Shown here: piece after piece, positions 304 to 18,200 of the stretch
Layout: every line of letters begins with the position of its first letter
Numbering within the stretch: the stretch's first letter is position 1
From: a virus
Direction: 5' to 3' (one strand)
IMG/VR virus record: IMGVR_UViG_3300030333_002703
Span: 32,001-96,000 of that record
Length of the DNA stretch: 64,000 nt
The notes under the pieces: model-generated
Seen by the model: only the letters and a program-made list of their open reading frames with translations
The model's database searches: none
What the model was told of the DNA's origin: nothing
Position numbers and translations under genes: made by a program

Positions 304-355
304 TATTGTAGTATCATAGGTGGTATCATATACCATTACAACACGTGGTGTGCCA

Positions 356-1747
356 ATGGTTCTTAGCGTAGCCCGGCCAGCCAGCGCAGTTTTGCTTAAG
401 GCACACCGAGTTGACGACCTTGTGATTGCGGGCTATGCGAGTGTCGAACTTGTGGATAAACAAGGTGACTTGATTACTACAGGTGCGCTCAATAAGGCAT
501 TCAAGAAGTTCATGGCGAACCCGCAATATAGCAATGTGCAACTAGCACATTCTAACATCCAAGTGGGTGAAGTCATTCCAGAATATACTGATACAAATGG
601 CCGTATGTGGAAGTCCGAGGTAGATGATACCGGACTATTCGTAGTTATCAAACTACGAAATGACATTGAAAAGGCCCGAGAAGTTGCCGCAGAAATTAGA
701 AAAGGCAATCTTCGTTCATTTTCCATTGGTGGTCAGGCGTTTAAGCGCGTCAACAAATCGGACGGAATGCGCGGTTCATACCGTGAAATCCAAGATATGG
801 AACTTCACGAAGTAACAATTTGTGAAAAGGGCATCAATACGGAATCTACCTTTAAGATATTGAAGGAGGACAAAAACATGGCAGAAACAGAAGTTGTGGA
901 ACAGTTGCACAATGTTCTGGAGCGTCTATCCAAGCGATTGGATGAGTCGGAAGGCGTGGAAAAGGGCAAGCCCCCATTCCTTGAAGACGACAAAGACGAC
1001 AAGGACAGCGGCGACGACAAGAAAGAAGGTAAGTCCGACAAGGACAAAGACGAAAAGATGGCATATTCAGATGAAGATGGCGACCAAGCGAACAAGGGAT
1101 TCGATGACGTTATCACAACTGAATACCTCAATTGGATGGAGAACACCCTAAAGGGCGCAGGTGTCGATACACACGCTGCTCGCGCACACTTTGACAGTGT
1201 GAACAAGGGATACCGACCTGAAGACAAGAGCGACCACCGAGGCCAACCCCCATTGGGTATTGTTGGCGAAGGTATCAGCGCACCCAAAGCCAATTTCGGT
1301 AGCGGGAAGCCTAAGGGTAACAAGTTCGCAATCCGCGCATCTCAAGATGCATGGTCGCCACCACGTGGCAACCAATTTGTCATCAAGGAAAACGTGACCG
1401 CTGCACAGGTCGAACAGGCTTACGAAGTCTACAAGGCCGCAGCAATGGAGCAGCAGTTCAAGGGCGAACTCAACGAAGCATTCGCAGAACGCCTAAACAA
1501 CGAACTCATGCACAAGCAAAATGCAGAAGAAAAGGCAGCATACGATGCCCGAACCGATGTATCCAGCCTACAGAAGGCTGTCCTTGAATTGGCAAACCGC
1601 ATTGACAACATTTCATCCGGTGAAGGTAGCGTATCAATCCGCAAATCTGCACCATCCGTTGAGATTCCCACAACAGAAGCATTGGCTGACATCAGTTGGT
1701 CCGATGTTCACAGCCTTGCTAACAAGGCACTAATGGGAGGCGAGTAA
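356..1747 (+). CDS. HK97-type prohead protease with C-terminal scaffolding region
   Basis: IAGYAS..VDKQGD, catalytic His (QLAHSN) and Ser (SFSIGG), LHEVTICEKGIN; acidic/coiled-coil C-terminus; directly upstream of capsid gene; ATG 356 follows GTGGTG (track start 320). Confidence 0.9.
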   Translation: MVLSVARPASAVLLKAHRVDDLVIAGYASVELVDKQGDLITTGALNKAFKKFMANPQYSNVQLAHSNIQVGEVIPEYTDTNGRMWKSEVDDTGLFVVIKLRNDIEKAREVAAEIRKGNLRSFSIGGQAFKRVNKSDGMRGSYREIQDMELHEVTICEKGINTESTFKILKEDKNMAETEVVEQLHNVLERLSKRLDESEGVEKGKPPFLEDDKDDKDSGDDKKEGKSDKDKDEKMAYSDEDGDQANKGFDDVITTEYLNWMENTLKGAGVDTHAARAHFDSVNKGYRPEDKSDHRGQPPLGIVGEGISAPKANFGSGKPKGNKFAIRASQDAWSPPRGNQFVIKENVTAAQVEQAYEVYKAAAMEQQFKGELNEAFAERLNNELMHKQNAEEKAAYDARTDVSSLQKAVLELANRIDNISSGEGSVSIRKSAPSVEIPTTEALADISWSDVHSLANKALMGGE

Positions 1748-1748
1748 T

Positions 1749-2891
1749 ATGGCACGAGATTATATCCGAACAATACAGGACATGGAGCGATACTATTACG
1801 GCGCAGGTAACGTAAGTGGCTACTCATACAGTGGCGCAGACATCCTCAAGGCCGATGCACCGCTTCTAAGCACGACAGCAGGAACATACCAAGCAATCTA
1901 TGGTCGCAAGGTCTGGTCGCAACTGAACCAAGAGTTCAACGCATTCAGCATTTTGCCCAAGAAGCCTTGGGAGAAGAGTGGTTGGAGAATCATTACCTCT
2001 AAGCCATCGTTCACCAAGGGTGGCGGTGTTGCGGAGAATGCAACCCTTCCTGACACGACCAAACCAACCTTCCTACACGTGGCTGCAAAGCCCAAGACGG
2101 TTGCTCACACATTCGATATGAGTGAAGTGGCAATCTTCCTTGCCGACAAGGACGACGGCCTCGGTGACATCCGACAGGTATTGAAGGAAGAAATGGGTAA
2201 GCACCACGCAGACCACGTGAACGTAATGCTCACAACTGACGTGGAAACACCAGCCGGTAACGATTTCGAGTCTCTTGACCGATTGACAACCAACCCATCA
2301 ACCATCAACAACGCGAACAGTTACGTGTCAGCAAACACTGACAACGATATGTACTCGATTACACGTGACAGCGGTGGAGATGCATGGGAGGCTGCTGAAG
2401 TCAGCGCATCAGGAACAAAAGGCACTAACCGAACATTGAGCCTTGACCATCTTGATACCATGTTCCAGCAAATCTGGACTCGTGGTGGTAATCCAAAGGT
2501 CATGTTCACTGGCTATGACACACTCATGCGTGTTCAGCAACTACTACAGACCCAGCAGCGCTTCATGGAAACCAAGCGTGTCACCCCATCGTTCAACGGT
2601 GTAAAGGGTGTACCCGGTATCGAAGCAGGATTCATTGTGGCTACCTACAACGGTGTCCCAATCATCCCAAGCAAGGACGTACAAACTGACGGCATCAGTC
2701 GTATCTACTACCTCGACACGGATTATTTGTGGTTCCAAACCGCAATTCCAACCCAGTACTTTGAGAGCGGTATTGAATCCGGCGACCCATTCGCCATCAA
2801 CCGCCTCGGTCAGGAAGGTCTGTATCGAACAATGGGTGAACTGATTGTGTCTTTCTACGGCGCACAGGGGAGTGTTCGTGACCTCTCGTGA
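1749..2891 (+). CDS. Major capsid protein (HK97 fold)
   Basis: 380 aa after the protease; GGVAENATLP E-loop and TYNGVPII...IYYLDT P-domain-like motifs; codon use visibly C-ending as in highly expressed genes. Confidence 0.9.
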   Translation: MARDYIRTIQDMERYYYGAGNVSGYSYSGADILKADAPLLSTTAGTYQAIYGRKVWSQLNQEFNAFSILPKKPWEKSGWRIITSKPSFTKGGGVAENATLPDTTKPTFLHVAAKPKTVAHTFDMSEVAIFLADKDDGLGDIRQVLKEEMGKHHADHVNVMLTTDVETPAGNDFESLDRLTTNPSTINNANSYVSANTDNDMYSITRDSGGDAWEAAEVSASGTKGTNRTLSLDHLDTMFQQIWTRGGNPKVMFTGYDTLMRVQQLLQTQQRFMETKRVTPSFNGVKGVPGIEAGFIVATYNGVPIIPSKDVQTDGISRIYYLDTDYLWFQTAIPTQYFESGIESGDPFAINRLGQEGLYRTMGELIVSFYGAQGSVRDLS

Positions 2892-4735: not shown

Positions 4736-5011
4736 ATGAATGGGCTATCCCTCAAAGATATTGACCGTATGAACAAACATGGATGGTCAAAAGCCCAAGA
4801 ACTCAAGCCAGCCGATGAAGGCATTGCGTGGGAGAACTACGCAATTAAAAAACAAAACACCCGCAATCGTCAGATTGCTGATGTATTGAACATTGGTGCT
4901 GGCACACGTTGTAAGCACTGTGGTATGTTACATCTATGTTGGGTTGCCAAATGCGCTACGTGTGGGCAAGATATGGATTACAACCTAGGTAAAACGGAGG
5001 CAGTTCGATAA
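4736..5011 (+). CDS. Small Zn-ribbon protein
   Basis: CKHC...CATC; GGTGA RBS. Confidence 0.7.
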   Translation: MNGLSLKDIDRMNKHGWSKAQELKPADEGIAWENYAIKKQNTRNRQIADVLNIGAGTRCKHCGMLHLCWVAKCATCGQDMDYNLGKTEAVR

Positions 5012-5970
5012 TGGTTGAATCATGTAAAGTTTGTAATGCTGAATCATCACCTGATTCATATTACTGTAGAGTCTGTCGTGAGTCGATGGGAACTGACGAA
5101 TCATCAACATCTACTGATTTTCGTATGAGTTACCCTATGGCTTTTGACTATGCATGGGCGTTGATGAAAAACTTTACACCTATACCTATATCTGATGAAG
5201 AGGCAAAAAAACTCTTGATAGCGCATGGTATTCCTCATGGTGATGGTTCATCAAGAGAACATGGAGAAGATGCACCACCTAATCCATTACGGCATACCTA
5301 TCCTCCTACAAGTGTAATGGCGATTTCTCGTGGTATTCCACAAGAAATTGCACAAAGCCAAGCCATTGGTATAGGGCATCATCCATTGTCGGCCTTGTAT
5401 CGAGATGAAGAGGGTAAGGGAAATCCCATTGAAACGACAGATATTTCTACTGACCCTTTGAAACCCAGCGCCACTACACCTATACCTTGGAACCGCCAAC
5501 GTGAATTAGGGAGGCCAATGTCTTTCACAGATGAGATGTCAGCAGATGCCGCAAATACCATGCATAGAGATATGGCACGAACCAATCCAAACCCGCCAGA
5601 ACAACGGCAACGAAGTCGTCAAGAAGCACCATATTTGTATGACGAACAAGGGCGATATGTTGGCGAAGGTCGTGGTAAAACAGAAAATGTCATTGCGACA
5701 TCCAATGATACTGTCAGCGTAGTTATGCAGATTCTCAAACAAGGAGATTTGAATAAATCGGCTTGGGAAGCGAGGCGAGAAGGACGGCGATACGGACCCT
5801 ATGGCCCTCCGACAGATGAATGGGAGTGTGATGAATGCGGTAAGCGCATCGGATTTACTGAAATCGGTGGTCAAGCCAAAAACGGCCCTCTTTGCATAGG
5901 GTGTGTTCAAAGGTATGTCGAGAACAGAAGAAGGAATAATCCACGTTGGATGTATGAGGAAGGGGCATGA
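5011..5970 (+). CDS. Accessory protein with N- and C-terminal Zn ribbons and internal AFDYAWALMK motif
   Basis: CKVC..CRVC at N-terminus, CDEC..CIGC at C-terminus; Pro/charged centre. Confidence 0.65.
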   Translation: MVESCKVCNAESSPDSYYCRVCRESMGTDESSTSTDFRMSYPMAFDYAWALMKNFTPIPISDEEAKKLLIAHGIPHGDGSSREHGEDAPPNPLRHTYPPTSVMAISRGIPQEIAQSQAIGIGHHPLSALYRDEEGKGNPIETTDISTDPLKPSATTPIPWNRQRELGRPMSFTDEMSADAANTMHRDMARTNPNPPEQRQRSRQEAPYLYDEQGRYVGEGRGKTENVIATSNDTVSVVMQILKQGDLNKSAWEARREGRRYGPYGPPTDEWECDECGKRIGFTEIGGQAKNGPLCIGCVQRYVENRRRNNPRWMYEEGA

Positions 5971-5975
5971 TTTGA

Positions 5976-7577
5976 ATGCCCACAGTATTTCAACCCGGTG
6001 AACGCGCACCAGAACCTATTGACCCAGATGCAGTCATCTATACGACCGCACAGAAAGTCGGTGAACTACTACAGATTCCACCCGCAGACCCGGTGGATTT
6101 AGCAGGTAACGCATCTGCATCTGATACATCTGTCGATATATCACCCATTGATTTTCGGAATACTGGATTTGAAGTAGGGGATGAAATTGAGATTGAAAGT
6201 GATGCAACATTGGTTGAGACACGTACAATTACTGCCATTACATTGAGTAGTGGCAATGCACGATTGGCATTCACAGGTGGTCTATCGTATGCACATACTA
6301 CTGCCAACAATGCCACCGTGCGTAACAATGCTATATTCACCAATGGCAAACTACGTGGTGTATCTAGAACACACGTTGAGACCTTGATTAAACGTCACCA
6401 AGACCGCATTGACAACATCTGCAATAACTCATGGCGACCTATGTTACAGGTTGCTGAATACAAGATATTTGATACTTACAAGCCATACCGACGCCGATAC
6501 TACACAGACTATGTTGGGACCACACCACTCTTATTCCGTAATGTTCAGCAGATTCTACGATTAGAGGTATGGCAAGGGCAAGATTACAAGGAATTGGCAG
6601 GTGCTGAAGTCCGATTGAAAATCATTGACCATTCAGCATTGGCAAGTGATGGTGTGTATCTGTGTCCGGGTGGTGGCGGTGTATTCACTTTGAACGTGGG
6701 TACAGATAGCGATACATGGAATGCATCGTTTGACAATGCGACAACCGCACAACAACTTGCAGACCTCATCAATAAGGATGGTCGTAGAAACAAAAATGCA
6801 GTCGCGTCATCGACCAATTACACATTGGAAGATTCGTATTCATCTAGTGGTACTGTGCAAGCCAAAGTCCACAATGAGTTCTTGGCATCAGCCAATGCTG
6901 ATTACGGCATCGCACGTGTCAAAATCAGTAGTATGCGTCGAGCGGCAGGTGGCACACAATCTACTATTGCCGCATCAGACCTGACAAACATTGAGTTTAG
7001 TCAACATGGTACTGCTACTACAACATCGACAAGTGTATCTAGCACTACTGTCAATGTCGCTTCTACTGCCGATTTCGTATCGCATGGACTCATTATGGTA
7101 GGTAGTGGCACATCAGTTGAGGTCTTGTCATATACGGGTAAAACCGCGACATCATTTACAGGATGCGCCAACGTCAAAGGAACCCCATTGACGACACTGA
7201 ATACAGGTGGAACGACAGCATTCCAATACCAATTCGCCATTGACTATCAAGGTTCCACCGCAACAGGTGATGAAGCCCGATTGAAGGATTGGTGGTTTGA
7301 CCCTGAAATGGGTGTCATATATTTCAACAATTCATATCCATTCTTTGAGTGGAATGCGGTCAAAGTTACGTATGTGTATGGCGAGCGGTACGTCGAAAAG
7401 GCCATTGAGGACATCGTGACCAAGTTGGTTGCTATGGACTTGATTACGGCTGATGACCGTTCAGTTCTAATTCCCGAAGGAACCACCAACATTGACCTAG
7501 GTTCCAAGTATCAACTATTCAAGCAACAGGTTGCCGAGACCTTGCCACGATATGTGGAGGTTGTTACACTTGACTAG
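5976..7577 (+). CDS. Putative head-tail adaptor (neck) protein with inserted beta domains
   Basis: YTT..KV..LL start, 'HQDRIDNICNNSW', C-terminal VKVTYVYG...AIEDIVTKLVA pattern typical of SPP1 gp15/HK97 gp6-like adaptors; position. Confidence 0.65.
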   Translation: MPTVFQPGERAPEPIDPDAVIYTTAQKVGELLQIPPADPVDLAGNASASDTSVDISPIDFRNTGFEVGDEIEIESDATLVETRTITAITLSSGNARLAFTGGLSYAHTTANNATVRNNAIFTNGKLRGVSRTHVETLIKRHQDRIDNICNNSWRPMLQVAEYKIFDTYKPYRRRYYTDYVGTTPLLFRNVQQILRLEVWQGQDYKELAGAEVRLKIIDHSALASDGVYLCPGGGGVFTLNVGTDSDTWNASFDNATTAQQLADLINKDGRRNKNAVASSTNYTLEDSYSSSGTVQAKVHNEFLASANADYGIARVKISSMRRAAGGTQSTIAASDLTNIEFSQHGTATTTSTSVSSTTVNVASTADFVSHGLIMVGSGTSVEVLSYTGKTATSFTGCANVKGTPLTTLNTGGTTAFQYQFAIDYQGSTATGDEARLKDWWFDPEMGVIYFNNSYPFFEWNAVKVTYVYGERYVEKAIEDIVTKLVAMDLITADDRSVLIPEGTTNIDLGSKYQLFKQQVAETLPRYVEVVTLD

Positions 7578-8007
7578 TCCAATTGATTTCGCATGGGCTG
7601 TAATGAAAGCACCTATTGATTCTCACGGTTATTCAGATTTACCCCGCGATATGTTCGATGAAAATGTAGGAATAATGTCTAATCAAGAAGAGCAAGATTG
7701 GTATGATTTTATAGCGAAACTGCCTTTTGATATGGACAACGATTTGACTGATGAAGAACAACAAATGATTGTTGGTATTTTCAATAGACTGTATGAAGGT
7801 GATGCTCACATACTACACCCTGATGACGATTTTGATGCAAGGGGCATGATATTCATTGAGGATTATGGGGAAGTGCCAAAAGAAGATTACTATAATGCCG
7901 AATGGTGGTGGAATCATCCACACGGACACATCAATAGCATACGAGATGAGTATGAATCTATTGAAGAACTTCAAGCAGATTTAGACAAGGAACGAGGGGC
8001 GGTTTGA
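7570..8007 (+). CDS. Acidic accessory protein with PIDFAWAVMK leader
   Basis: GGAGG 7556-7560 before in-frame TTG 7570 (MTSPIDFAWAVMKA); track start 7531. Confidence 0.7.
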   Translation: MTSPIDFAWAVMKAPIDSHGYSDLPRDMFDENVGIMSNQEEQDWYDFIAKLPFDMDNDLTDEEQQMIVGIFNRLYEGDAHILHPDDDFDARGMIFIEDYGEVPKEDYYNAEWWWNHPHGHINSIRDEYESIEELQADLDKERGAV

Positions 8008-8390
8008 TGCACCCAATTGACCACGCATGGGCCGTATTGAAAGCCAATGAAGTAGTTATTGATGGTGTCACATACGTGCCACAACAAGAACAGCCGCAAC
8101 AAGAAGAACCTGCACCTACTGGAAGTGATGTACCGTGGGCTGGTCGCACTATTGCGAATCAAGGTGGATGGAAAGATTTTGGTCGCCGTATGATGGCAGG
8201 ATTTAGAACCCGCGATGACCAAGGTAATAGAAGTACTATGATGGATAAATTACGCGGAGCAATGGAGCAACGCCAACAACAATTGTCTGCGCCCAATCCT
8301 GAAGCAGATTCACCATTAGCGACGGAAGAAGAAAAACCTAGGTCTATTATGGATTTAGTGCCAGATGAGGATGACCCCGAGGCATGGTGA
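8004..8390 (+). CDS. Accessory protein with PIDHAWAVLK leader
   Basis: TTG/ATG at 8004/8007 overlapping previous stop; Gln/Glu/Pro-rich. Confidence 0.7.
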   Translation: MMHPIDHAWAVLKANEVVIDGVTYVPQQEQPQQEEPAPTGSDVPWAGRTIANQGGWKDFGRRMMAGFRTRDDQGNRSTMMDKLRGAMEQRQQQLSAPNPEADSPLATEEEKPRSIMDLVPDEDDPEAW

Positions 8391-8396
8391 TTGAAT

Positions 8397-8702
8397 ATGA
8401 TGAGTAAAGAAGTATGGAATAATATGCGAAGTAGCATCATTATGCAACGTGACGAAGGATTACTCATTGACGATACACAGCGTGAAAATTTCTACATTCA
8501 AGAATGCATGGCTGAATTAGATTACAGTGGTACTGAATGTCAATATGATGATGGTAATATCATCGACCCAAAAACGAGTAATCCTGTATCTAACGATATT
8601 GCTGATGCCATTCATCGACGTGTTAAACAACGTAGTGGGACCGAAAGCATTTTAGCAGACAAGATGTTGAGACAATTGGATAAGTTGGAGGATTTATCAT
8701 GA
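8397..8702 (+). CDS. Hypothetical neck-region protein
   Basis: GGTGA RBS; overlaps next gene by ATGA. Confidence 0.6.
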   Translation: MMSKEVWNNMRSSIIMQRDEGLLIDDTQRENFYIQECMAELDYSGTECQYDDGNIIDPKTSNPVSNDIADAIHRRVKQRSGTESILADKMLRQLDKLEDLS

Positions 8703-9148
8703 CAGCAACGTGGTTAGAGGCGATTCCATTATTGGAGAATCTATTCGATACAGGTTGGAACCGTGCCAATACGGGCCAACGTAAGCCGGTGATTGCTGAT
8801 ATTACAACAGTGGACCCCGGCCGTGGGAAGCGTTTGGACATCCAGCGACAAGATGCTGTGTTGTTCTATGAGACTGCACACAACGAAGAACAACCTGAAT
8901 TGCTATACGACTTCGTGAACACTCGTATCAATATCACAGTGGACATCAGAACCACTGTAAGTCGTGACCAACTATACAAGATGGAAAACGAGGTACGACG
9001 TATTGTTCATGCCAATCGTAGAGGTGATGCGGTGAACTTTGATAGGATGATTTACAAGACCAGAACTGACCTATCTGACCGTACAAAGAAGTTGTGGCGT
9101 TACACATTTCAGGTAGAAATAGTAACCTTTGCAGAATTGATACCATGA
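8699..9148 (+). CDS. Putative tail terminator/completion protein
   Basis: 149 aa just before tail tube; ITVDIRT...EVRRIV...WRYTFQVEI pattern. Confidence 0.6.
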   Translation: MTATWLEAIPLLENLFDTGWNRANTGQRKPVIADITTVDPGRGKRLDIQRQDAVLFYETAHNEEQPELLYDFVNTRINITVDIRTTVSRDQLYKMENEVRRIVHANRRGDAVNFDRMIYKTRTDLSDRTKKLWRYTFQVEIVTFAELIP

Positions 9149-9190
9149 AAACACTGATTAACTGACGTAGTATCCGAGGTAGTGAAGCAT

Positions 9191-11158
9191 ATGCCATCAA
9201 CAGTGTATAAGGGTGACTTGAGCGAGGTCACATTCGGTCGAGAATCAGGATTATATCTCAAATCAGCAGACAGCGCAGGACACGCATCTGGCTATCCTCA
9301 AACATTCACATGGACTTCTGCGGCAGTCGCAAGTACCAATACTTCCACCATCACATTTGCAGGTGGTATCGCAAATAGTCCAGTACAAAGTACGAAACTA
9401 ATGTATCCAGATGGTATGCTCATTGGTGCAACATTGACATTCCATGCATCAGGTAATTTCGCCAATGATGATTACGCTACAACAGGTCAAATCTATACCA
9501 TTGTGAAACACACAGCGTCGTCTGGTGCTACGGTTTTGACTGTATCGCCACAAATGAATGTTGCGAATAATTCAGCAACAGGTGATGCGATGTACATTCA
9601 TGCATTGGGTACTCCTGCACCGGATGTCACAATGGCTCACAATACTTCTGCAAGCAGTAGCGACGAATCAGTATTGACTGACCAATTCATAGGTCTGGCC
9701 GCAACGGTCACATTACCTGATACAAAAAATGAGATTAAGCGACAACACGTTGTCGGTATTGGTCGTGATGTCGTAGTCCAAGTGGCTGGCAAGCAAGTCA
9801 ACGAGGGTGGTTCTATTGAAGTTATGATGAATAATCCACGTTGGATGTATTACGCATTGGGTGGAACAACCGTTAAGGATACAAGCACAGGTGCAGTTGT
9901 AAGTCCCACATTGGATGGTGCAGTTAGCGCTGGTGATTCACACGTTACTCTATCAGCATTGACAAGTATTGCAGTAGGTGATTATCTGATGATTGAAGAT
10001 ACTACTGCATATCAGATTCCAAGCGATAACCCAGCAACGGCTGGCACAGGTTCCGGTGGCAATACATGGCCGGATAGTACTGCAGCAACCGGATTCAAGT
10101 TCACAGAAACCAATGAAGTGCGTCGTATTGTCGCATTGAATGGGTCCAATTCCAGCAACAGTAAAGTGGTATGGTTGGATGCACCATTAGACTTCGGCCA
10201 TGCAACAGGTAAAACGTGCCGTATTATGCGATATGATACAGCATCATCTAATGGAAGTCCTGATGTGAACAAGGACACCTTAGCCATTACCAATCCATAC
10301 ACACATATGGTCTATAGTTCATGGAATATCCCATCATTCACTTTGGAACACAGTATTCGTAATCGTGATGTTGGAGGATTCCAAACTGAAACAGGCGCAC
10401 TTGAAAACGTACCGGGTACATCGTCTGACGCCAAGACCTTAACACGTGTATTCCGAGGATGCAAAGTGAAGGATTGGTCATTGGGCGCAGATGCAGATGC
10501 CGAAGTCAAATTTACAGTCAATTTCGATGCACTGTCCGTGTACACAGATACTGGAAGATTGGAAGCGAGTGACAAAGGTGACAGATACACCGCACACCGT
10601 ATGTTTGAAAATACAGCAAACAGTGTGGTTAATCGTAAGATTGCAGGTATCGCACCATATACACAAAAACCATACCTATTCTACAACGGGACTATCAAAG
10701 CATTTGGTCAGACCTTGGCGCGTGTAACCAAATTCAATCTAAATGGTAAAAACAATGTTACACAACATTGGACAATCAAAGGAACCGATGCACCATTATA
10801 CAGCACCACTACAACAGGTGAGGCACAAGTTCCATTTGCGGGGTCACGATTCCCAAGTCTAGCCGTTGAAGGTAAAACCGAATACGATTTGGAATTGGAA
10901 ATTATCATTGATGACCCACTTCTATGGCACGAACTACGCAATGCAACCGAGCGAGATTGGACTGCACCTGTTGAATTACAACTCACCAAACAAGGAACAG
11001 GTGCAACCCGCGAACAAATTACCATTACGGTGGAAGATTACATCATGGAAACGGGGCCAATTCCTGTGCCAGAAGATAAAGGTGTGATTCGCACTACCGC
11101 TAAACTACTATGCAAGCACGTCAAGATGGAGACTACTGGAACACTCATAGGATTGTGA
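9191..11158 (+). CDS. Major tail tube protein, enlarged by inserted domains
   Basis: SEVTFGRES start, PSFTLEHS, RVFRGCKVKDWSL tube-like motifs; upstream of chaperone and tape measure. Confidence 0.7.
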   Translation: MPSTVYKGDLSEVTFGRESGLYLKSADSAGHASGYPQTFTWTSAAVASTNTSTITFAGGIANSPVQSTKLMYPDGMLIGATLTFHASGNFANDDYATTGQIYTIVKHTASSGATVLTVSPQMNVANNSATGDAMYIHALGTPAPDVTMAHNTSASSSDESVLTDQFIGLAATVTLPDTKNEIKRQHVVGIGRDVVVQVAGKQVNEGGSIEVMMNNPRWMYYALGGTTVKDTSTGAVVSPTLDGAVSAGDSHVTLSALTSIAVGDYLMIEDTTAYQIPSDNPATAGTGSGGNTWPDSTAATGFKFTETNEVRRIVALNGSNSSNSKVVWLDAPLDFGHATGKTCRIMRYDTASSNGSPDVNKDTLAITNPYTHMVYSSWNIPSFTLEHSIRNRDVGGFQTETGALENVPGTSSDAKTLTRVFRGCKVKDWSLGADADAEVKFTVNFDALSVYTDTGRLEASDKGDRYTAHRMFENTANSVVNRKIAGIAPYTQKPYLFYNGTIKAFGQTLARVTKFNLNGKNNVTQHWTIKGTDAPLYSTTTTGEAQVPFAGSRFPSLAVEGKTEYDLELEIIIDDPLLWHELRNATERDWTAPVELQLTKQGTGATREQITITVEDYIMETGPIPVPEDKGVIRTTAKLLCKHVKMETTGTLIGL

Positions 11159-12227: not shown

Positions 12228-13949
12228 ATGGCAGATACGACCCAACGAGCAACTCAAGATACGGCGGCTCTACAAAGACAGATTCAAGGGCAAGTTGTAT
12301 CTCTCGGTCTTTTAGAAAAGGCACAATTGAAAGTTCACAAAGCAATGGTGAATATGCCCGGTTTGAAAACAATACTGCAAATGAAACAATTTGTTGGAGG
12401 GATTATGGGAGCGCATAAAGCCAATACGCAATTAGCGCAAGGACAGCAAAATGCAAATAAACGAGCAAATACCAATTTGTCTGTCATACAACAATTGTGG
12501 GTATCCATGACAGCATATGGGGCAGCGACAAGGGTAGCAACTAAAGGAACTTCTGGATTAGGCAAAGCCATGTTTTCATTGGTTGGTAGCATGATGTTTA
12601 TTTTTGGTATTTTTTTATTGCTGGTATTAGGTCTAGGATTAGTTGCAGTTGCCTTTGCTGATGCTAATAGCCCGATGGTACAGATGATGGAAAATACGCC
12701 GGTATTATCAAATGTTTTGAGTGGATTACAAATTGTCTTAACAGGTGAAGATGGTGCAAGTGGAGCCGCTGGTGCATTCGATGTATTCGTAGTGGCCGCT
12801 ATCGCAGCAGCAGCATCACTCGCATTATTTGGTGCGCCTATTGCTATATTGGTAGGAACTTTAGTCGCAACTGTTGGCATTTTCAAATGGTTCAAAAAAG
12901 AAACAGGAAGTACATTTGGTGCAATTGCGGCAGGTACGGCAGTTGCAGCAGCAGGTTTGTATGCATTCGGCGCATTTATTGGTGGATGGGTAGGAACGAT
13001 ATTGACAACAGTAATGGGACCAATTGCCCTTATTGCTGGTGGTATCGCAGGTCTGGTAGCCGTGGCTTCAGGCGCAATGAGTGACGCAAAAGCAATTCTT
13101 GTGGGCATTGTCAGTGCTGTGTTACTGGCAGTAGGATTGATTGTTGCGGGTGTTGCTATTGTTCCTGCTGCAATCATCGCCGCAGTTGCGTTGGTTCTCG
13201 CCATCATTTGGCGATTCCGTGACCAAATTATTGAAGGCATTACATGGTTCCTTGGATGGCTATGGGCTGGTGTCGAAACTGTTGGTACTATTTTATGGAC
13301 TATTGGTGAAGTGATTGTTTCTGCAGTAGTGTTCATTGTCACACTACCGTTCAAACTCATTTGGGGATTGTTGAAATTCTTATTCAGCATACCCGGTATG
13401 TTGTTCAATCTAGGTAAGAAGATTGGTGAAGCCACCGTGAAGCCATTCTTAGACCTTGTAGCGGCAGTCAAATCTATTGGTGCTGGCCTGAAAGATAAAT
13501 TTATGTCTGGTGTTAATTGGTTCTTGAATTTACCCAATACGATTATCGCTGGTGTCAAAGCAGGGATGGCGGCATTTGATAGTGCATTCCGTGGTTTTTG
13601 GAATCAATATATTTCACAAACATGGACAGTTCCGAGATTCATTATGAAACTCACAGGTTTGCCTCGCAAACTCAATTTCCCACCAGAGATGGCAGATGGT
13701 GGTATTGTATCAGGTCCGAAAAGTGGATACCCTGCTACATTACACGGTACTGAAGCCGTAGTCCCATTACCTGATGGGCGCTCTATCCCTGTTACTATGA
13801 AAGGTGGTACTGGTGGCGGAGGTCACACATTCAATATCCATGTGGATGCGTCTGGCATTGCCATTCTATCACATCAACAAAAGATGTCATTCGCCAAAGA
13901 AATTGGCAATCTCATCAAAGATGAAATCAATAAAAGCAGTCCATTCTAG
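12228..13949 (+). CDS. Tail tape measure protein
   Basis: Ala/Gly/hydrophobic helical protein after chaperone; C-terminal MADGGIVSGP...LHGTEAVVPL motif. Confidence 0.85.
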   Translation: MADTTQRATQDTAALQRQIQGQVVSLGLLEKAQLKVHKAMVNMPGLKTILQMKQFVGGIMGAHKANTQLAQGQQNANKRANTNLSVIQQLWVSMTAYGAATRVATKGTSGLGKAMFSLVGSMMFIFGIFLLLVLGLGLVAVAFADANSPMVQMMENTPVLSNVLSGLQIVLTGEDGASGAAGAFDVFVVAAIAAAASLALFGAPIAILVGTLVATVGIFKWFKKETGSTFGAIAAGTAVAAAGLYAFGAFIGGWVGTILTTVMGPIALIAGGIAGLVAVASGAMSDAKAILVGIVSAVLLAVGLIVAGVAIVPAAIIAAVALVLAIIWRFRDQIIEGITWFLGWLWAGVETVGTILWTIGEVIVSAVVFIVTLPFKLIWGLLKFLFSIPGMLFNLGKKIGEATVKPFLDLVAAVKSIGAGLKDKFMSGVNWFLNLPNTIIAGVKAGMAAFDSAFRGFWNQYISQTWTVPRFIMKLTGLPRKLNFPPEMADGGIVSGPKSGYPATLHGTEAVVPLPDGRSIPVTMKGGTGGGGHTFNIHVDASGIAILSHQQKMSFAKEIGNLIKDEINKSSPF

Positions 13950-13957
13950 GTGATATT

Positions 13958-15247
13958 ATGTCAGTTCCAATTCGTCTTGTGCAACGCAATGGAGACCTCA
14001 TTTCGTTAGATGCATTAGATTTCAATTTCAATATCGCACGTGGCACTACACCTGTACCTATTCCTATGTTCGGAGAACGAGCCGCAGCAGATTTGAATGT
14101 CGTTACCACTAGCATCACTATGAGTGTGATTATACGCGATGATGATTGTGAATCAACAGATGTCTCACCACAATCTGCTTCAGCATTCATTGATTTTGGT
14201 AAGCCCAATGAACGAGATGCAAATCAAATTGGTGCAGGGTCGTATTTCTTAGGTGATGGTGGAACCGTTACGATTGGGCAAAGCACTGGTGAAGACATTA
14301 CCAACAAAGAATTCCAAATAAAATCTACCCACCATCAACAATCAGGCACTGGTCCTGTCATCATCAAATTCATTGCTGATGCCGCTGGCTCTTTAGGTGC
14401 TGCGACATACAGTTCTGGAACGGTGAGTATCAATCTCTATCATGCTAACTTGGTACACGCATCTGCGCCATCTCCATCATCGGGTGCATTCGATAGCATT
14501 GGAGAAGAGGTTGCGACATACCTCACCAATGCATTAAACAATTCAGCCAACATTGGTATCACCACAACAAGCACAGGAGATACAGGTCTTAGTCATGCAT
14601 TTACAGCCACTTTGAATAATGGTATATTCCCCACTACATTAGGCAGCACACGTGTAGATATTGTGCAAAAAGAAACGGGGGTAAATGGAGATAGTGCAAC
14701 TCCCGTATTTTGGGATTTGACTTCATCAGGGTCTAGCAATCAATTGGCGTGTAAGCCACCATCATTTCGTACATTCCGTGGTGGTAAAGGTAGTACGTGC
14801 AAATCTGCAGGTGACAAAGTACAAGACCTTATCGCCAATGTATCGAATAGTAACGTCATGGGTGCAGTCGGTCAAGTCATTTCACTAGATGCAAATGAAG
14901 AACGAAAAAGTGTCATCAGTACTGATTTCAATAGTTTGGACCCGACTGCAGGAGCCACAGATGACTATATTGTAGGTATTCAAATACCATACAATTCATT
15001 GATTCAAGCGGCTGGAACTACATCAACTGTGGCTCGCAATTTCTTACTTGTGACAGGTCTTAGTCCTGCGGCTAATCAAGGTTCAGAAGCCAATACATTA
15101 CCTGCGAGTACAACTTTCGATGTGTTAGATGTCTATACAGGTATTCGTGGCACTGTAACAACTCTCCAACTTAAGTATTCAGCAGGTGATACCTTCTACG
15201 GAGGTTCAATCACATTCAACCCAATTGACTTCATTGCAGGACCGTGA
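13958..15247 (+). CDS. Putative distal tail/baseplate hub protein
   Basis: Follows tape measure; Ser/Thr/Gly-rich; GGTGA RBS. Confidence 0.55.
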   Translation: MSVPIRLVQRNGDLISLDALDFNFNIARGTTPVPIPMFGERAAADLNVVTTSITMSVIIRDDDCESTDVSPQSASAFIDFGKPNERDANQIGAGSYFLGDGGTVTIGQSTGEDITNKEFQIKSTHHQQSGTGPVIIKFIADAAGSLGAATYSSGTVSINLYHANLVHASAPSPSSGAFDSIGEEVATYLTNALNNSANIGITTTSTGDTGLSHAFTATLNNGIFPTTLGSTRVDIVQKETGVNGDSATPVFWDLTSSGSSNQLACKPPSFRTFRGGKGSTCKSAGDKVQDLIANVSNSNVMGAVGQVISLDANEERKSVISTDFNSLDPTAGATDDYIVGIQIPYNSLIQAAGTTSTVARNFLLVTGLSPAANQGSEANTLPASTTFDVLDVYTGIRGTVTTLQLKYSAGDTFYGGSITFNPIDFIAGP

Positions 15248-15251
15248 TATT

Positions 15252-18200
15252 ATGACACTGATTGGTAAAAGTAGCCATGCAATGTTTTTCAATGGTATAT
15301 CAGATGGTATCTTGGTTCCGCAAGCACCATTCTCTAAAACTGGGACACAAACTACTCATGGTAAATCATACGACGCGACATTGGGTGGGCAAGGTCAAAA
15401 CGTAAATACCAAAATGAGTAAAACTAGTGAATCATTCAGCGTTGAAGCATGGGTAGTGCCTGATTGTGGTGGTGTGATTGCTTCCAAAGAAGGTGTGTTT
15501 GAATTACGAATTGGGGATATTAGCACACCCGGCCCAGCCCAATTTACAGTTCACACTTACGATGAAAATGTAGGTAAGCAATCTGTAACGGCTACAACAG
15601 CGTCACCTGTGATTGTATCTGGGGCGCACAAAGGGTGGGATGGCATCGTATATCCAACGGATGCATCCGTGGCTCTACAAGGCACGTTCAATCGCTTCAA
15701 TACGGGTAAAACAGATGAATCTGCATTGAATCGTAATTCACGTGAATTGATTTACATTGTTGGTGTGTTCACTGGGCAACAAGTCAAACTGTATGTAAAT
15801 GGAGAATTGGTAGCATCTGAAAAACTTCAACGTAAAACACGTAGCGCTCATTCATCTGCTAATCTATACATTGGTGGTAAAGGTGGTGAATATCGTGGTC
15901 GTATTGAAGGTGTACATTGGCGACGTGGGTTCGCTGAAAGTAATGCCATACCTAGTTCACTATTACCAAACACTGATACTATTGGATTGTGGCGGTTTGA
16001 AGAACCCATTGATGTGCCAGATATTTCACTGACATTGAAATCTGCAGCATCAGCATCAACAAATGCCAGTGGTAGTACATTGACAATATCCAACGCTGAT
16101 GGTAAAGCGTTGATGGAATACATCACAGGTTCAACACCTACGGCAACAACCACATTAGACCTTGCTTCATCCACATATAGCAATGGCAAATATCAGATAA
16201 CTACAGCCGGTGCATTACAACAACCTGACCATCTTCCTATCAATCTCATCATTAATCCCACAGGTGTGGATGAAAAAACTGGCATTGCGTATCAAACAAG
16301 CCCCCCAGAGCGCGTTAGATTGAAGCAAGTGGTATGGAATGCCGATGGCACTACAGACAGCACCCTGACGGTGTATAGTATCCATTTAGATTTTAGCAAT
16401 AGCACCACCACAGGTCTGCGTGGATTATTACACGCACACGCAGCCAATGATACTACCAACCAACTTGCGAAAGGTTCGACCATTGCCGTTATCAATTCAG
16501 ACCTACTGATTGATTCAGGTAGTGGATTACCATTACGCGCACCCGGTCAAGGTACACAAATCATTGACCGTACAGGCCAAATGGTAATTGATGAAGTCGG
16601 TGGCAATCATGGATTCATTTTCAATACACAAATTGCTACTGACACTACAAATAACCCATTCGCATTCAATTGGGGTGCGACAGAACTACCTGTTGGATTC
16701 CAAGCCGGTCATACAGGCCGACACAAATTCACACACATCACTGGGCATCCATATCTTCAGCATTTACCCGAAGCCACTGAAGAAATAGTTGAACGAAATT
16801 TAGATGGTGACAGTGATTCATTTACAGCATTCTATGAAGGAAGCGCATTAGGTCTGCGTCGTCAAGTGCCATTGGGGTCATTGATGGATGTTCACCGCCA
16901 AGCATTTGTCGGGTCGGCCATCAATGTGGAAAATACAGGTACAGTAGTTGAAGCCGTTGAGAATGGATTAGCAGGTTTTGACACTACGGCACGACAACTC
17001 ATTGCTATTGGTGGTGAGGGATTCGACCCAATACCATTTTTATTGAAAGGTCATGCATTCCTTGGTGAAGATGGAACTACAGATACCTATGATATGCACC
17101 TAACACCTGAAGATACATCACGTGTGGCTATTTTGGAATGTGCAATGGGAAGTGACGCCGCACCATATGTGGAAATCCATTACAATGCCATTGATTTGGA
17201 TGGTAGCCGTATTCAGTATGCTGCAACAGGGACAACATCAGCGGCATGGGATAATACCAATCATCGTATCACATTGACCAATAATGGCACGAAAGCATTT
17301 GGTCCTAACAGTGGAACATTCGATGGATACCATCTCATCTGCGATGGGGAACGGGCTTACGATTCTAAAGGAACTGTTACTTTTACAATTGACCACACCA
17401 ATCACCGATTGAATGCAACATCAGGTGGTTCAAGTGTCCGAACTGCATTTGAAGGTAAGATTGCGGCTGCTGGTGCTATTGTATATTTAGAACTTACAGG
17501 TGCAGCGTTATGTGTAACTAAAACTGTGCCGGATGCATCATCTATTATCAGTGGAACACAAGTCATTGATTACATTCATACTGCATTAGCATCGGGGGCA
17601 ACATTACACGCTCCCGGTGGTGTAGTGACCATCAGCGATGATGTATTGGGAGCGGGTAGTGTCGCATTTCAAAATCATCGTATGGTAGGCGATAATACAG
17701 GTGGCACAACATATGAAATGGAATTGGACAACACTTTGATTCCGGCCAATCATGTTCCCAATTCTGCTACAGATACTCCGCAATCACCCCCAAAAGGAAT
17801 TGTTGCTTCTCATGTAATTGATGCTACGCATTCACCTGTTTATCACAAAATGGTTATCCGCAATTCTCAATCTGGAACATCAGGTTCTGCAGCCGGTAAT
17901 TCAAGCGACCCTGCTATTACAAACGCACCTGATATATTCCGATTATCGCCACGGAAAGAAGCGACTTCAAATGCAAATGGAGTATTCGATACTCCAGCCA
18001 CCAATCATGCGACTAATCTGTTTGAGGTATTCGATATTATTGACAATTGGCAAGTCGGGAAAAATCATGTATTGATAGTACAACCAACAGACCGTACACG
18101 CACTATGCAATTGACAAAATTCGCAAGTGAATCTACACAATCCAATGACCCTAATTTCCTAAGTGTCGAGTTCTTACAATGTCGTGGTCGTGTCCAAGAC

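What the first reader, a model, noticed from the sequence alone, without database searches (positions are those of the whole stretch)
5137..8045. Shared 'D-x-A-W-A-[LV]-[ML]-K' leader on unrelated accessory proteins: candidate capsid-targeting and protease-cleavage tag
Seen: three otherwise dissimilar ORFs in the head/neck cluster carry the same ~11-aa peptide. These are MAFDYAWALMKN (5137-5172, after an N-terminal Zn ribbon), MTSPIDFAWAVMKA (from TTG 7570) and MHPIDHAWAVLKA (from 8007). Similarity stops abruptly after the Lys. The same hydrophobic-hydrophobic-K-small ending occurs near the MCP N-terminus (DILK/A, K34, 1842-1853) and repeatedly in the protease/scaffold (LLKA, ILKE, LQKA, IRKS, NKG). 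Known: T4 internal proteins enter proheads via a short N-terminal capsid-targeting sequence removed by the prohead protease, and Listeria phage A511 capsid protein is processed after a Lys. Inference: this virus has a modular tag that loads exchangeable cargo proteins into the head, is clipped after K, and delivers them to the host with the DNA. I do not know of this being described for archaeal viruses.
Basis: partly seen in the sequence, partly recalled or inferred. Interest (0 to 1): 0.82.

Follow-up and report, generated by a model that had tools for sequence, protein, structure and literature searches.

The report
Shared address tag on magrovirus proteins
Three unrelated small proteins of this ocean archaeal virus (a magrovirus) carry the same 12-residue helix, which also marks hundreds of unrelated, fast-changing proteins in related viruses; it is most likely a label that loads them into the virus head, but neither loading nor cutting has been shown.

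Summary
The motif D-x-A-W-A-[LV]-[ML]-K occurs three times in the six-frame translation of the window, against none in 300 shuffles. The three proteins share nothing beyond it.

A profile of the tag, [M]-[NTS]-[PA]-[FMIL]-[DEN]-x-A-W-x-h-L-K (h = hydrophobic), finds 254 distinct tagged ORFs in related IMG/VR contigs. Their cargo parts fall into 123 unrelated groups. There are 6-10 tagged ORFs per near-complete genome, and nearly all lie on the strand of the structural genes.

- Conservation is on the amino acids: third codon positions vary freely.
- Conservation ends exactly at the Lys, which is never Arg.
- Tagged genes are accessory cassettes between conserved head and neck genes. Related genomes also hold arrays of them 23-30 kb upstream of the capsid gene.
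- The tag is absent from 596 Gb of cellular genomes and from the head region of halovirus HVTV-1.
- It is not strictly N-terminal. About a quarter of copies are internal or C-terminal, some behind a Zn ribbon as in the 5011 ORF.

Best reading (about 0.5): a capsid-targeting tag like the T4 capsid targeting sequence, probably cut after Lys by the S78 prohead protease. Packaging and cleavage are inferred, not shown. This scan reached the same reading before on other magrovirus genomes. I found no paper that describes the tag.

The parts
5011..5970 (+). Tagged ORF 1 (319 aa): N-terminal CxxC...CxxC Zn ribbon, tag, about 220 aa of low-complexity sequence, then a C-terminal Zn ribbon. ATG 5137 is an alternative start.
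   Evidence: Its homologue in L002 starts at the tag and shares the C-terminal Zn ribbon (cluster 11). The ESM Atlas holds the 319-aa form with mean pLDDT 0.43.
5134..5169 (+). Tag copy 1, PMAFDYAWALMK
   Evidence: Profile hit of 14.6 bits; regex match.
7570..8007 (+). Tagged ORF 2 (145 aa, TTG start behind a GGAGGT Shine-Dalgarno site). Acidic. Its orthologue in L009 carries MNPLEKAWAVLK.
   Evidence: cluster 12. No Pfam or PHROG family.
7573..7608 (+). Tag copy 2, TSPIDFAWAVMK
   Evidence: Profile hit of 16.6 bits.
8007..8390 (+). Tagged ORF 3 (127 aa, ATG 8007). Q/E/P-rich, with no relatives among the tagged ORFs.
   Evidence: (cluster 27).
8007..8042 (+). Tag copy 3, MHPIDHAWAVLK
   Evidence: Profile hit of 22.5 bits.
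320..1747 (+). Prohead protease (S78) fused to a helical scaffold. The likely start is ATG 356 (463 aa). It is the candidate processing enzyme and candidate receptor.
   Evidence: PF04586, E 2.7e-10. P0001 is identical and 463 aa long. AF2 model: protease at 22-170, long helices, disordered linkers.
1634..1648 (+). Conserved S-I-R-K442|S443 site (h-x-K-[SA]) in a disordered linker just before the scaffold tail. Candidate maturation cut.
   Evidence: Conserved in 63 relatives. Lies in a segment with pLDDT below 50, model residues 419-431.
1676..1744 (+). Scaffold C-terminal amphipathic helix, EALADISWSDVHSLANKALMGGE. It shares the core [AS]-W-x-x-h-[KH] with the tag.
   Evidence: Conserved L-A-x-M-S-W-D-D-V-H-x-L-A. 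The relaxed core occurs only 5 times in the 21,576 aa of the window: three tags, this tail and one other.
1749..2891 (+). Major capsid protein with the HK97 fold
   Evidence: PF17236. AF2 mean pLDDT 80.9. Foldseek top hits are Mic1, SU10, HK97 and encapsulins.
1839..1853 (+). D31-I-L-K34|A35 in the flexible N-terminal stretch of the MCP. Candidate propeptide cut with the same h-L-K ending as the tag.
   Evidence: Invariant in 43 relatives. K-A-D-A-P is the consensus down to about 30% identity. Residues 20-47 have pLDDT below 50. By my extrapolation of the profile alignment, the Mic1 MCP chain starts at about our residue 39.
5976..7577 (+). Conserved core structural gene (533 aa) that flanks the cassette site
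   Evidence: phrog_17057. Homologues of 51-91% identity in related loci.
8699..9148 (+). Conserved core gene that flanks the cassette site on the other side
   Evidence: Homologues of 60-85% identity. The gap between it and the 5976 gene varies from 6 to 2511 nt with the number of tagged ORFs.

Best explanation
The peptide is a portable, virus-specific address tag. It is a roughly 10-residue amphipathic helix, (N/T/S)-(P/A)-h-(D/E/N)-x-A-W-x-h-L-K. It has an N-cap box, a hydrophobic face h4/A7/W8/L11 and an invariant closing Lys.

Magroviruses place it mostly at the N-terminus, sometimes inside or at the C-terminus, of a large and fast-changing set of otherwise unrelated soluble accessory proteins. 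These genes are co-oriented with the structural genes, so they are presumably made late.

Inferred mechanism:
1. The helix docks the cargo to one conserved viral partner inside the assembling prohead. The partner is either the scaffold part of the protease-scaffold protein or the inner face of the HK97-fold capsid protein. The tag may mimic the scaffold's own C-terminal W-helix.
2. The S78 prohead protease then cuts after the Lys. It would also cut the capsid protein at ILK34|A and the scaffold at IRK442|S.
3. The cargo stays in the head and enters the host with the DNA. Cargo types include small acidic, disordered proteins, Zn-binding mini-proteins, a basic DUF6321 protein, and ParB-like and SLOG-like domains.

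Shown here: the tag, its modularity, its genomic distribution, protein-level selection, the sharp boundary at Lys, and its absence from cellular genomes.

Inferred: the destination, the receptor, the cleavage and the delivery.
For: - The tag is real and under protein-level selection. Observed 3 copies against 0.0 in shuffles. There is three-base periodicity of conservation, and it ends after codon 12.
- It is modular. The 254 distinct tagged ORFs fall into 123 cargo clusters. The window's three cargos are unrelated.
- It follows the late strand. In the 81 MCP-oriented sequences there are 78 hits of at least 12 bits on the MCP strand and none on the other. All 82 hits lie 2.6-9.8 kb downstream of the MCP start. 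In six near-complete genomes, 6-10 tags each, all but one are on the MCP strand.
- Related genomes hold arrays at the start of, or elsewhere in, the same gene block as terminase, portal, protease and MCP.
- The tagged genes are accessory cassettes. The gap between two conserved core genes varies from 6 to 2511 nt with the number of tagged ORFs. This is like the polymorphic internal-protein locus of T-even phages, where only the capsid targeting sequence is conserved (PMC3012670).
- The boundary fits a propeptide. In the DUF6321 family, leaders of several types and lengths all end h-h-K, and the conserved part [AG]KKKSKPFHGYNP starts directly after it.
- Lys is 98% conserved and never Arg. The residue after it is A, G or S in half the cases.
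- The MCP has the same h-L-K|A in a low-confidence linker. The scaffold has a conserved h-x-K|S in a disordered linker before its tail helix.
- An S78 (HK97-type) protease is encoded next to the MCP.
- The tag is virus-specific. There are 0 matches in 596 Gb of prokaryote genomes and nothing above 2 bits in halovirus HVTV-1.
- The cargo is soluble. It has no hydrophobic runs and is rich in E, R, G, P, D and Q.
Against: - There is no direct evidence that any tagged protein is in virions or is cleaved.
- About 24% of tags are internal or C-terminal. A cut after Lys would not free a cargo that lies upstream of the tag. A pure docking motif explains these copies equally well.
- The residue after Lys also includes M, E, Q, N and K, so any cut-site rule is loose.
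- A strongly helical peptide is an unusual protease substrate.
- The largest arrays in related genomes sit far from the head genes, next to a Roc-like GTPase and an HMGL-like enzyme. A destination other than the capsid is therefore possible.
- The resemblance to the scaffold tail rests on a pattern designed after the fact.
Confidence: 0.5

Rival explanations
1. The helix is an uncleaved docking motif for a common hub that is not the capsid. The hub could be a viral or host chaperone, a replication or transcription factor, or the viral small-GTPase and membrane-protein system encoded near the large arrays. The tag would bring many accessory proteins to one place in the infected cell.
For: The motif works at N-terminal, internal and C-terminal positions, as short linear docking motifs do. 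It has the h-x-x-x-W-x-x-L spacing of groove-binding helices. The largest arrays lie 23-30 kb from the MCP, beside a Roc-like GTPase gene.
Against: All tagged genes are co-oriented with the structural genes, and many sit between the MCP and the tail genes. The motif is absent from cellular genomes, so no host protein uses that form of the tag. This reading does not explain the strict Lys with conservation ending exactly there. Nor does it explain the matching endings in the MCP and at the DUF6321 leader-to-mature junction.
Confidence: 0.2
2. The tag anchors exchangeable proteins to the outside of the virion, on the capsid surface, neck or tail. It would act like the conserved N-terminal anchors of exchangeable tail fibres or like decoration proteins.
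For: In this window the tagged genes lie among the head-completion and neck genes, between the MCP and the tail tube gene. A conserved N-terminus with a variable C-terminus is the usual layout of exchangeable fibres.
Against: The cargos are small (median 114 aa), mostly acidic and of low complexity, or are Zn mini-proteins or a basic DNA-binding-like protein. They are not beta-helical receptor binders. A 10-residue helix is a weak structural anchor. Many tagged genes lie far from the tail genes.
Confidence: 0.1
3. The tag is a self-associating or inhibitory propeptide. Either it bundles tagged proteins together, or it keeps harmful effectors inactive until removed. No specific capsid receptor is involved.
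For: It is an amphipathic helix with an invariant Trp. The boundary at Lys is propeptide-like. Some cargos look like conflict-system domains: weak ParB_N and a SLOG-family hit.
Against: One short helix is unlikely to inhibit 123 unrelated folds. This reading does not explain the internal and C-terminal copies or the link to the structural gene block.
Confidence: 0.07
4. The tag is a leader peptide for peptide modification, as in RiPP precursors (ribosomally made, post-translationally modified peptides). This would apply at least to the short Cys-rich products.
For: Several tagged ORFs in related loci encode 33-45 residue cores with 8-10 Cys that end in GCA or GCS.
Against: Most cargos are 76-164 aa and some reach 433 aa. 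Pfam scans of neighbours found no modifying enzyme. The same tag sits on large multi-domain proteins.
Confidence: 0.04

Closest known systems
Capsid targeting sequence (CTS) of phage T4 internal proteins (IPI-III, Alt) and the polymorphic internal-protein locus of T-even phages
   Same: A short (about 10 aa) peptide is the only thing shared by a diverse, fast-changing set of accessory proteins (PMC3012670). The genes are variable cassettes between conserved genes. The tag ends at a residue that fits a prohead-protease cut. The cargos probably act in virus-host conflict.
   Different: There is no sequence relation. The protease is HK97-type S78 with a presumed Lys at the cut site, whereas T4 gp21 cuts after Glu (that detail is from memory). 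The host and virus are archaeal. The tag also works internally and C-terminally, and behind Zn ribbons. Packaging and cleavage are demonstrated for T4 and not here.
N-terminal capsid targeting signal of phage P1 DarB
   Same: An N-terminal signal is sufficient to load a protein into an HK97-fold head. The cargo counters host defence (PMC9024508).
   Different: The P1 signal is known for one protein and is not a shared consensus on many. No cleavage is linked to it there.
Cargo-loading peptides of encapsulins
   Same: A short terminal peptide on unrelated cargo binds the inner face of an HK97-fold shell. Encapsulin shells are among the structural neighbours of this MCP. Position in the cargo is flexible.
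   Different: Encapsulin peptides are extended, Gly- and hydrophobic-rich, and are not removed. They usually sit on one or a few cargos encoded next to the shell gene. Here the tag is a Trp-centred helix on dozens of cargos.
Herpesvirus UL26/UL26.5 and HK97 gp4 protease targeting: a C-terminal tail binds the capsid protein and a maturation cut releases it
   Same: The protease is fused to a scaffold, with a conserved C-terminal helix and a conserved site in a disordered linker just before it. The tag shares the core small-W-x-x-h-basic with that tail.
   Different: The function of the tail here is inferred from position and conservation only. The tag and the tail are similar in a short core, not demonstrably homologous.

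Membership tests
T4-type capsid targeting sequence system | One short peptide shared by otherwise unrelated proteins | tested here: met
   254 distinct tagged ORFs in 123 cargo clusters. The three window cargos are unrelated.
T4-type capsid targeting sequence system | Tagged genes are polymorphic cassettes among related genomes | tested here: met
   The gap between conserved flanking genes is 6-2511 nt and tracks the number of tagged ORFs.
T4-type capsid targeting sequence system | The peptide is necessary and sufficient for encapsidation | not testable with these tools
   Needs expression of a tag-reporter fusion with MCP and scaffold.
T4-type capsid targeting sequence system | The peptide is removed by the prohead protease at a consensus site | tested here: inconclusive
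   Indirect only. There is a sharp boundary at an invariant Lys, a DUF6321 leader-to-mature junction, matching sites in the MCP and scaffold, and an S78 protease. There are no protein data.
T4-type capsid targeting sequence system | Sequence relationship to the T4 CTS or use of a gp21-type protease | tested here: not met
   The protease is PF04586 S78. The tag consensus has no likeness to the T4 CTS as I recall it. This is therefore an analogue, not a member.
Encapsulin cargo-loading peptide | Extended Gly/hydrophobic consensus peptide, not cleaved, on cargo encoded beside the shell gene | tested here: not met
   The tag is a Trp-centred helix with an N-cap box. It sits on 6-10 genes per genome, many of them far from the MCP.
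Secretion signal peptide | Hydrophobic core of about 10-20 residues | tested here: not met
   The tag is amphipathic and 12 residues long. No cargo has a hydrophobic run of 15 or more residues.
RiPP precursor leader | Short core peptide and adjacent modifying enzymes | tested here: not met
   Median cargo is 114 aa and the largest 433 aa. No modifying enzyme was found among the neighbours scanned.
DNA-level repeat (promoter, recombination linker) | Conservation of nucleotides regardless of codon position | tested here: not met
   Third codon positions carry about 0-0.3 bits, while first and second positions carry up to 2 bits.

The most novel reading that the evidence does not exclude
Magroviruses run a programmable cargo-loading code. 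Any protein that carries the 10-residue Trp helix is tethered inside the prohead, because the helix mimics the scaffold's own capsid-binding tail. It is then released by the S78 protease cutting after the invariant Lys. This would let the virus ship a rapidly exchangeable arsenal into Poseidoniales cells with its DNA, including a histone-like basic DUF6321 core protein. It would be the first virion-cargo addressing system described for archaeal viruses.
Probability: 0.35. Interest if true: 0.8.

Novelty: new variant of a known kind. Interest (0 to 1): 0.7.

Why it matters
Magroviruses are abundant, uncultured viruses of one of the commonest archaeal groups in the surface ocean, and most of their genes are unexplained.

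- A shared address tag gives a single handle on 6-10 unknown genes per genome, and on hundreds of families across the group. It predicts that they are virion cargo acting at the first moments of infection.
- It points to concrete, cheap experiments: particle assembly with tag-reporter fusions, and N-terminomics.
- It would extend the capsid-targeting principle known from T4 and P1 to archaeal viruses, with a different protease chemistry.
- A short portable tag for loading proteins into an HK97-fold shell is also of practical interest for protein encapsulation.

Tried and rejected
- **Complex prediction.** MCP + protease-scaffold + 40-residue tagged N-terminus, all given as alignments, returned no answer: score 0.01 against a mark of 0.32, and the controls were not run. 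It counts neither for nor against binding.
- **No whole genome** is held for this window. I could not check whether this virus also has an upstream tag array.
- **Cargo function.** Pfam, PHROG and ESM Atlas searches gave almost nothing. The hits were DUF6321, a weak ParB_N, a weak SLOG-family (YAcAr) hit, DUF7140 and Zn ribbons.
- **Protease N-terminal LLK as a cut site.** Rejected, because it is the first beta strand of the S78 fold.
- **A lineage-specific alternative tag.** I tested whether the CxCC-SPxExAxxhhK leader marks a different virus lineage. It does not. It occurs once per locus, several of them on contigs that also carry AW-type tags, and the leader was defined on the DUF6321 protein family. 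Hybrids such as CxCC...LAWAVMK link the two forms.
- **Co-variation of tag and scaffold tail.** Distant MCP relatives (33-51% identity) have related [ML]-[ST]-[WF]-x-[DE]-h tails. Within 10 kb of the MCP they show no enrichment of two W-x(1-2)-h-h-K patterns on the MCP strand, so no test was possible.
- **Gene fission at the tag in L057/L067.** The upstream 190-aa domain has no separate homologue in the other loci.
- **DNA-level explanation.** Rejected.
- **Literature.** The two magrovirus papers I searched for motif, leader and N-terminal terms do not mention the tag. No paper mentions DUF6321. I found no data on MCP N-terminal processing in the related haloviruses.
Full report
**Observation**

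- PMAFDYAWALMK at 5134-5169, inside the ORF 5011-5970 and behind a CxxC...CxxC Zn ribbon.
- TSPIDFAWAVMK at 7573-7608, in an ORF starting at TTG 7570 behind a GGAGGT ribosome-binding site.
- MHPIDHAWAVLK at 8007-8042, in an ORF starting at ATG 8007.

The strict motif D-x-A-W-[AGS]-h-h-K occurs three times in all six frames of the window and never in 300 shuffles. Beyond the Lys the three proteins have no detectable similarity. None matches a Pfam or PHROG family apart from weak Zn-ribbon-type matches.

**What the virus is**

- The window encodes an S78 prohead protease fused to a helical scaffold (320-1747), followed by an HK97-fold major capsid protein, the MCP (1749-2891). The MCP model has mean pLDDT 80.9, and its nearest structures are Mic1, SU10, HK97 and encapsulins.
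- Downstream lie head-completion genes, a tail-tube-like gene (9182-11158) and a 6024-aa ORF.
- The MCP has hundreds of relatives of 72-92% identity in marine IMG/VR contigs of 90-110 kb.
- Its closest cultured relatives are the haloarchaeal siphoviruses HVTV-1 and HCTV-1 at 33-34% identity. This matches the published description of magroviruses (PMC5434244).

**The tag in related genomes**

I built a profile from the first regex hits. It finds 78 copies of at least 12 bits on the MCP strand of 81 MCP-oriented sequences (80 loci plus the window, about 1 Mb) and none on the opposite strand. All 82 hits of at least 10 bits lie 2.6-9.8 kb downstream of the MCP start.

Many hold 5-8 tagged ORFs in tandem. 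For five of these loci I located both the array and the MCP. They come from the same kind of virus (MCP 73-77% identical), and the arrays lie 23-30 kb upstream of the MCP on the same strand. In contig G004 the array forms the first genes of the long gene block that runs on to terminase, portal, protease and MCP.

Six near-complete genomes carry 6-10 tags each, and all but one tag are on the MCP strand. Pooled, there are 349 hits of at least 12 bits. They reduce to 254 distinct ORFs, whose cargo parts fall into 123 BLAST clusters.

Consensus:

| Position | Residues |
|---|---|
| 1 | M 65% |
| 2 | N/T/S |
| 3 | P/A |
| 4 | F/M/I/L |
| 5 | D/E/N |
| 6 | any |
| 7 | A 97% |
| 8 | W 100% |
| 9 | any |
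| 10 | L/V/I/F |
| 11 | L 91% |
| 12 | K 98%, never R |

This reads as a single amphipathic helix with an N-cap box and the spacing h-x-x-x-W-x-x-L.

**Nature of the conservation**

Across 244 distinct loci, first and second codon positions of the tag carry up to 2 bits. Third positions carry about 0-0.3 bits. All signal disappears after codon 12. A G-rich ribosome-binding site lies 8-14 nt upstream. The selection is therefore on the peptide, not on the DNA, and the boundary after Lys is sharp.

**Accessory character**

The distance between two conserved core genes, the homologues of 5976-7577 and 8699-9148, varies from 6 to 2511 nt among related genomes. It follows the number of tagged ORFs lying between them, which ranges from 0 to 3. 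The MCP-to-5976 interval varies from 1.5 to 4.5 kb in the same way. In this window the two tagged ORFs at 7570 and 8007 fill that cassette site.

**Not only N-terminal**

- 171 of the 254 distinct ORFs have Met at tag position 1 or 2.
- 21 more probably use GTG or TTG starts.
- 62 carry the tag internally or at the C-terminus.

Recurrent forms are a Zn-binding mini-domain followed by the tag (the window's 5011 ORF; SYPLEKAW in L007 and L014), a tag between two modules (L057, L067), a tag 2-12 residues from the C-terminus (L069, L075), and two tags in one protein (L007, L009, L053). The same cargo family occurs both as a stand-alone protein starting with the tag and as the second module of a longer protein.

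**Cargo**

Median length is 114 aa and median pI is 5.5. No cargo has a hydrophobic run of 15 or more residues. The composition is rich in E, R, G, P, D and Q. Twenty-six cargos have two or more CxxC-like pairs.

Few cargos have families: a basic DUF6321 domain, a weak ParB_N hit, a weak SLOG-family hit and DUF7140. The ESM Atlas model of the window's 319-aa protein has mean pLDDT 0.43.

**The DUF6321 family and the boundary**

This basic protein lies inside the tag array in L104. In 117 close relatives it carries leaders of different lengths and types:
- the AW tag
- a CxCC-SP-x-E-h-A-[FMT]-x-h-h-K form
- hybrids such as CxCC-SPSELAWAVMK
- others

All end h-h-K. All are followed at once by the conserved [AG]KKKSKPFHGYNP. 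A variable leader joined to a conserved body exactly at the Lys is what a propeptide junction looks like.

**Possible cut sites in the head proteins**

- The MCP has an invariant [DE][IL]LK34|[AS]D[AS]P. It is kept as K-A-D-A-P in the consensus of relatives down to about 30% identity. It lies in a stretch of pLDDT below 50, between a short N-terminal helix and the fold. By my extrapolation of the profile alignment, the solved Mic1 capsid protein begins at about our residue 39.
- The scaffold has a conserved h-x-K442|S443 in a disordered linker. It is followed by a conserved C-terminal helix, L-A-x-M-S-W-D-D-V-H-x-L-A.
- That tail shares the core [AS]-W-x-x-h-[KH] with the tag. The core occurs only five times in the window's 21,576 aa: three tags, the tail and one other. 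I chose the pattern after seeing both sequences, so this is a lead only.
- The LLK at the protease N-terminus is a strand of the S78 fold and says nothing about cleavage.
- That the HK97 S78 protease removes the 103-residue scaffold domain of its capsid protein is documented (PMC10275583). That residue 103 is Lys is my recollection.

**Specificity**

The pattern ATG-N-P-h-[DEN]-x-A-W-x-h-h-K has no match in one genome from each of 185,579 prokaryote species, 596 Gb in all. Halovirus HVTV-1 has nothing above 2 bits in the 25 kb around its MCP. Distant MCP relatives (33-51% identity) show no enrichment of two W-x(1-2)-h-h-K patterns on the MCP strand within 10 kb of the MCP. The tag thus appears to be a magrovirus invention and not a borrowed host signal.

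**Interpretation**

The facts fit the T4 model closely. There, a diverse and polymorphic set of internal proteins shares only a capsid targeting sequence that directs them into the scaffolding core (PMC3012670). Phage P1 DarB has a comparable N-terminal signal (PMC9024508).

My confidence by sub-claim:

| Claim | Confidence |
|---|---|
| The helix is an address tag for one common viral partner | about 0.85 |
| The destination is the prohead interior | about 0.55 |
| It is cut after Lys by the S78 protease | about 0.45 |

The internal and C-terminal copies, the loose residue after Lys, and the arrays next to a Roc-like GTPase and an HMGL-like enzyme keep an uncleaved docking motif with another destination alive as the main rival.

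No whole genome is held for this window.

**Earlier work and novelty**

This scan reached the same reading before on at least five other magrovirus genomes. Those notes are not independent evidence. Their remark that the tag resembles the scaffold tail made me compare the two in register. The two magrovirus papers I searched for motif, leader and N-terminal terms do not mention the tag.

I rate it a new variant of a known kind. It follows a capsid-targeting-like addressing principle, in archaeal viruses, with a different sequence, a different protease class and free placement within the protein.

Noticed in passing
window 15186-33260 (+): A single 6024-aa ORF takes up 28% of the window. It lies after the tape-measure-like gene (12228-13949) and the 13958-15247 gene. 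The profile finds no tag copy in it.
   Followed up: no
window 8391-8702 (+): The ORF directly after the two tagged ORFs starts MNMMSKEVWNNMRS. The stretch E-V-W-N-N-M-R loosely fits W-x-x-h-[KHR]. It may be a decayed or divergent tag, and it scores below the profile threshold.
   Followed up: partly
window 1634-1744 (+): The protease-scaffold ends with a conserved h-x-K|S site in a disordered linker, followed by a conserved W-helix tail. This layout recalls the herpesvirus scaffold maturation site before its capsid-binding tail. Distant relatives keep an [ML]-[ST]-[WF]-x-[DE]-h tail.
   Followed up: partly
window 4736-5011 and 5011-5970 (+): A 91-aa Zn-ribbon ORF is coupled by an overlapping TAATG stop-start to the tagged ORF. 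The tagged ORF itself has Zn ribbons at both ends.
   Followed up: no
L104, - strand, about 7552-7596; proteins P0121-P0240: A highly basic DUF6321 protein sits inside the tag array. Its leader comes in several variants, including CxCC-SPxExAxxhhK. It is a candidate DNA-binding core protein made as a precursor.
   Followed up: partly
L052:9640, L055:8060, L059:8299, L087:5873-6019 and others: Tagged mini-proteins whose 33-45 residue bodies hold 8-10 Cys and end in GCA or GCS. In L053 the same module is fused behind a second tag at the end of a 300-aa protein.
   Followed up: no
L204:5105-6058 and L204:10707-11429 (contig G004): An HMGL-like TIM-barrel enzyme (E 1.2e-18) and a weak Roc-like small GTPase hit lie just downstream of the upstream tag array. 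They sit between it and the terminase-portal-protease-MCP block.
   Followed up: no
G007, about 85476 (+): This is the only tag found on the strand opposite to the MCP in six near-complete genomes (GESMDLAWRLLK, 10.6 bits).
   Followed up: no
L212:3242-4837 (contig G010, the closest complete genome): A 532-aa tagged protein with a weak YAcAr (SLOG-family) hit, a nucleotide-binding fold common in conflict systems. The score is 26.5 bits, below Pfam's 28.2 cutoff.
   Followed up: no
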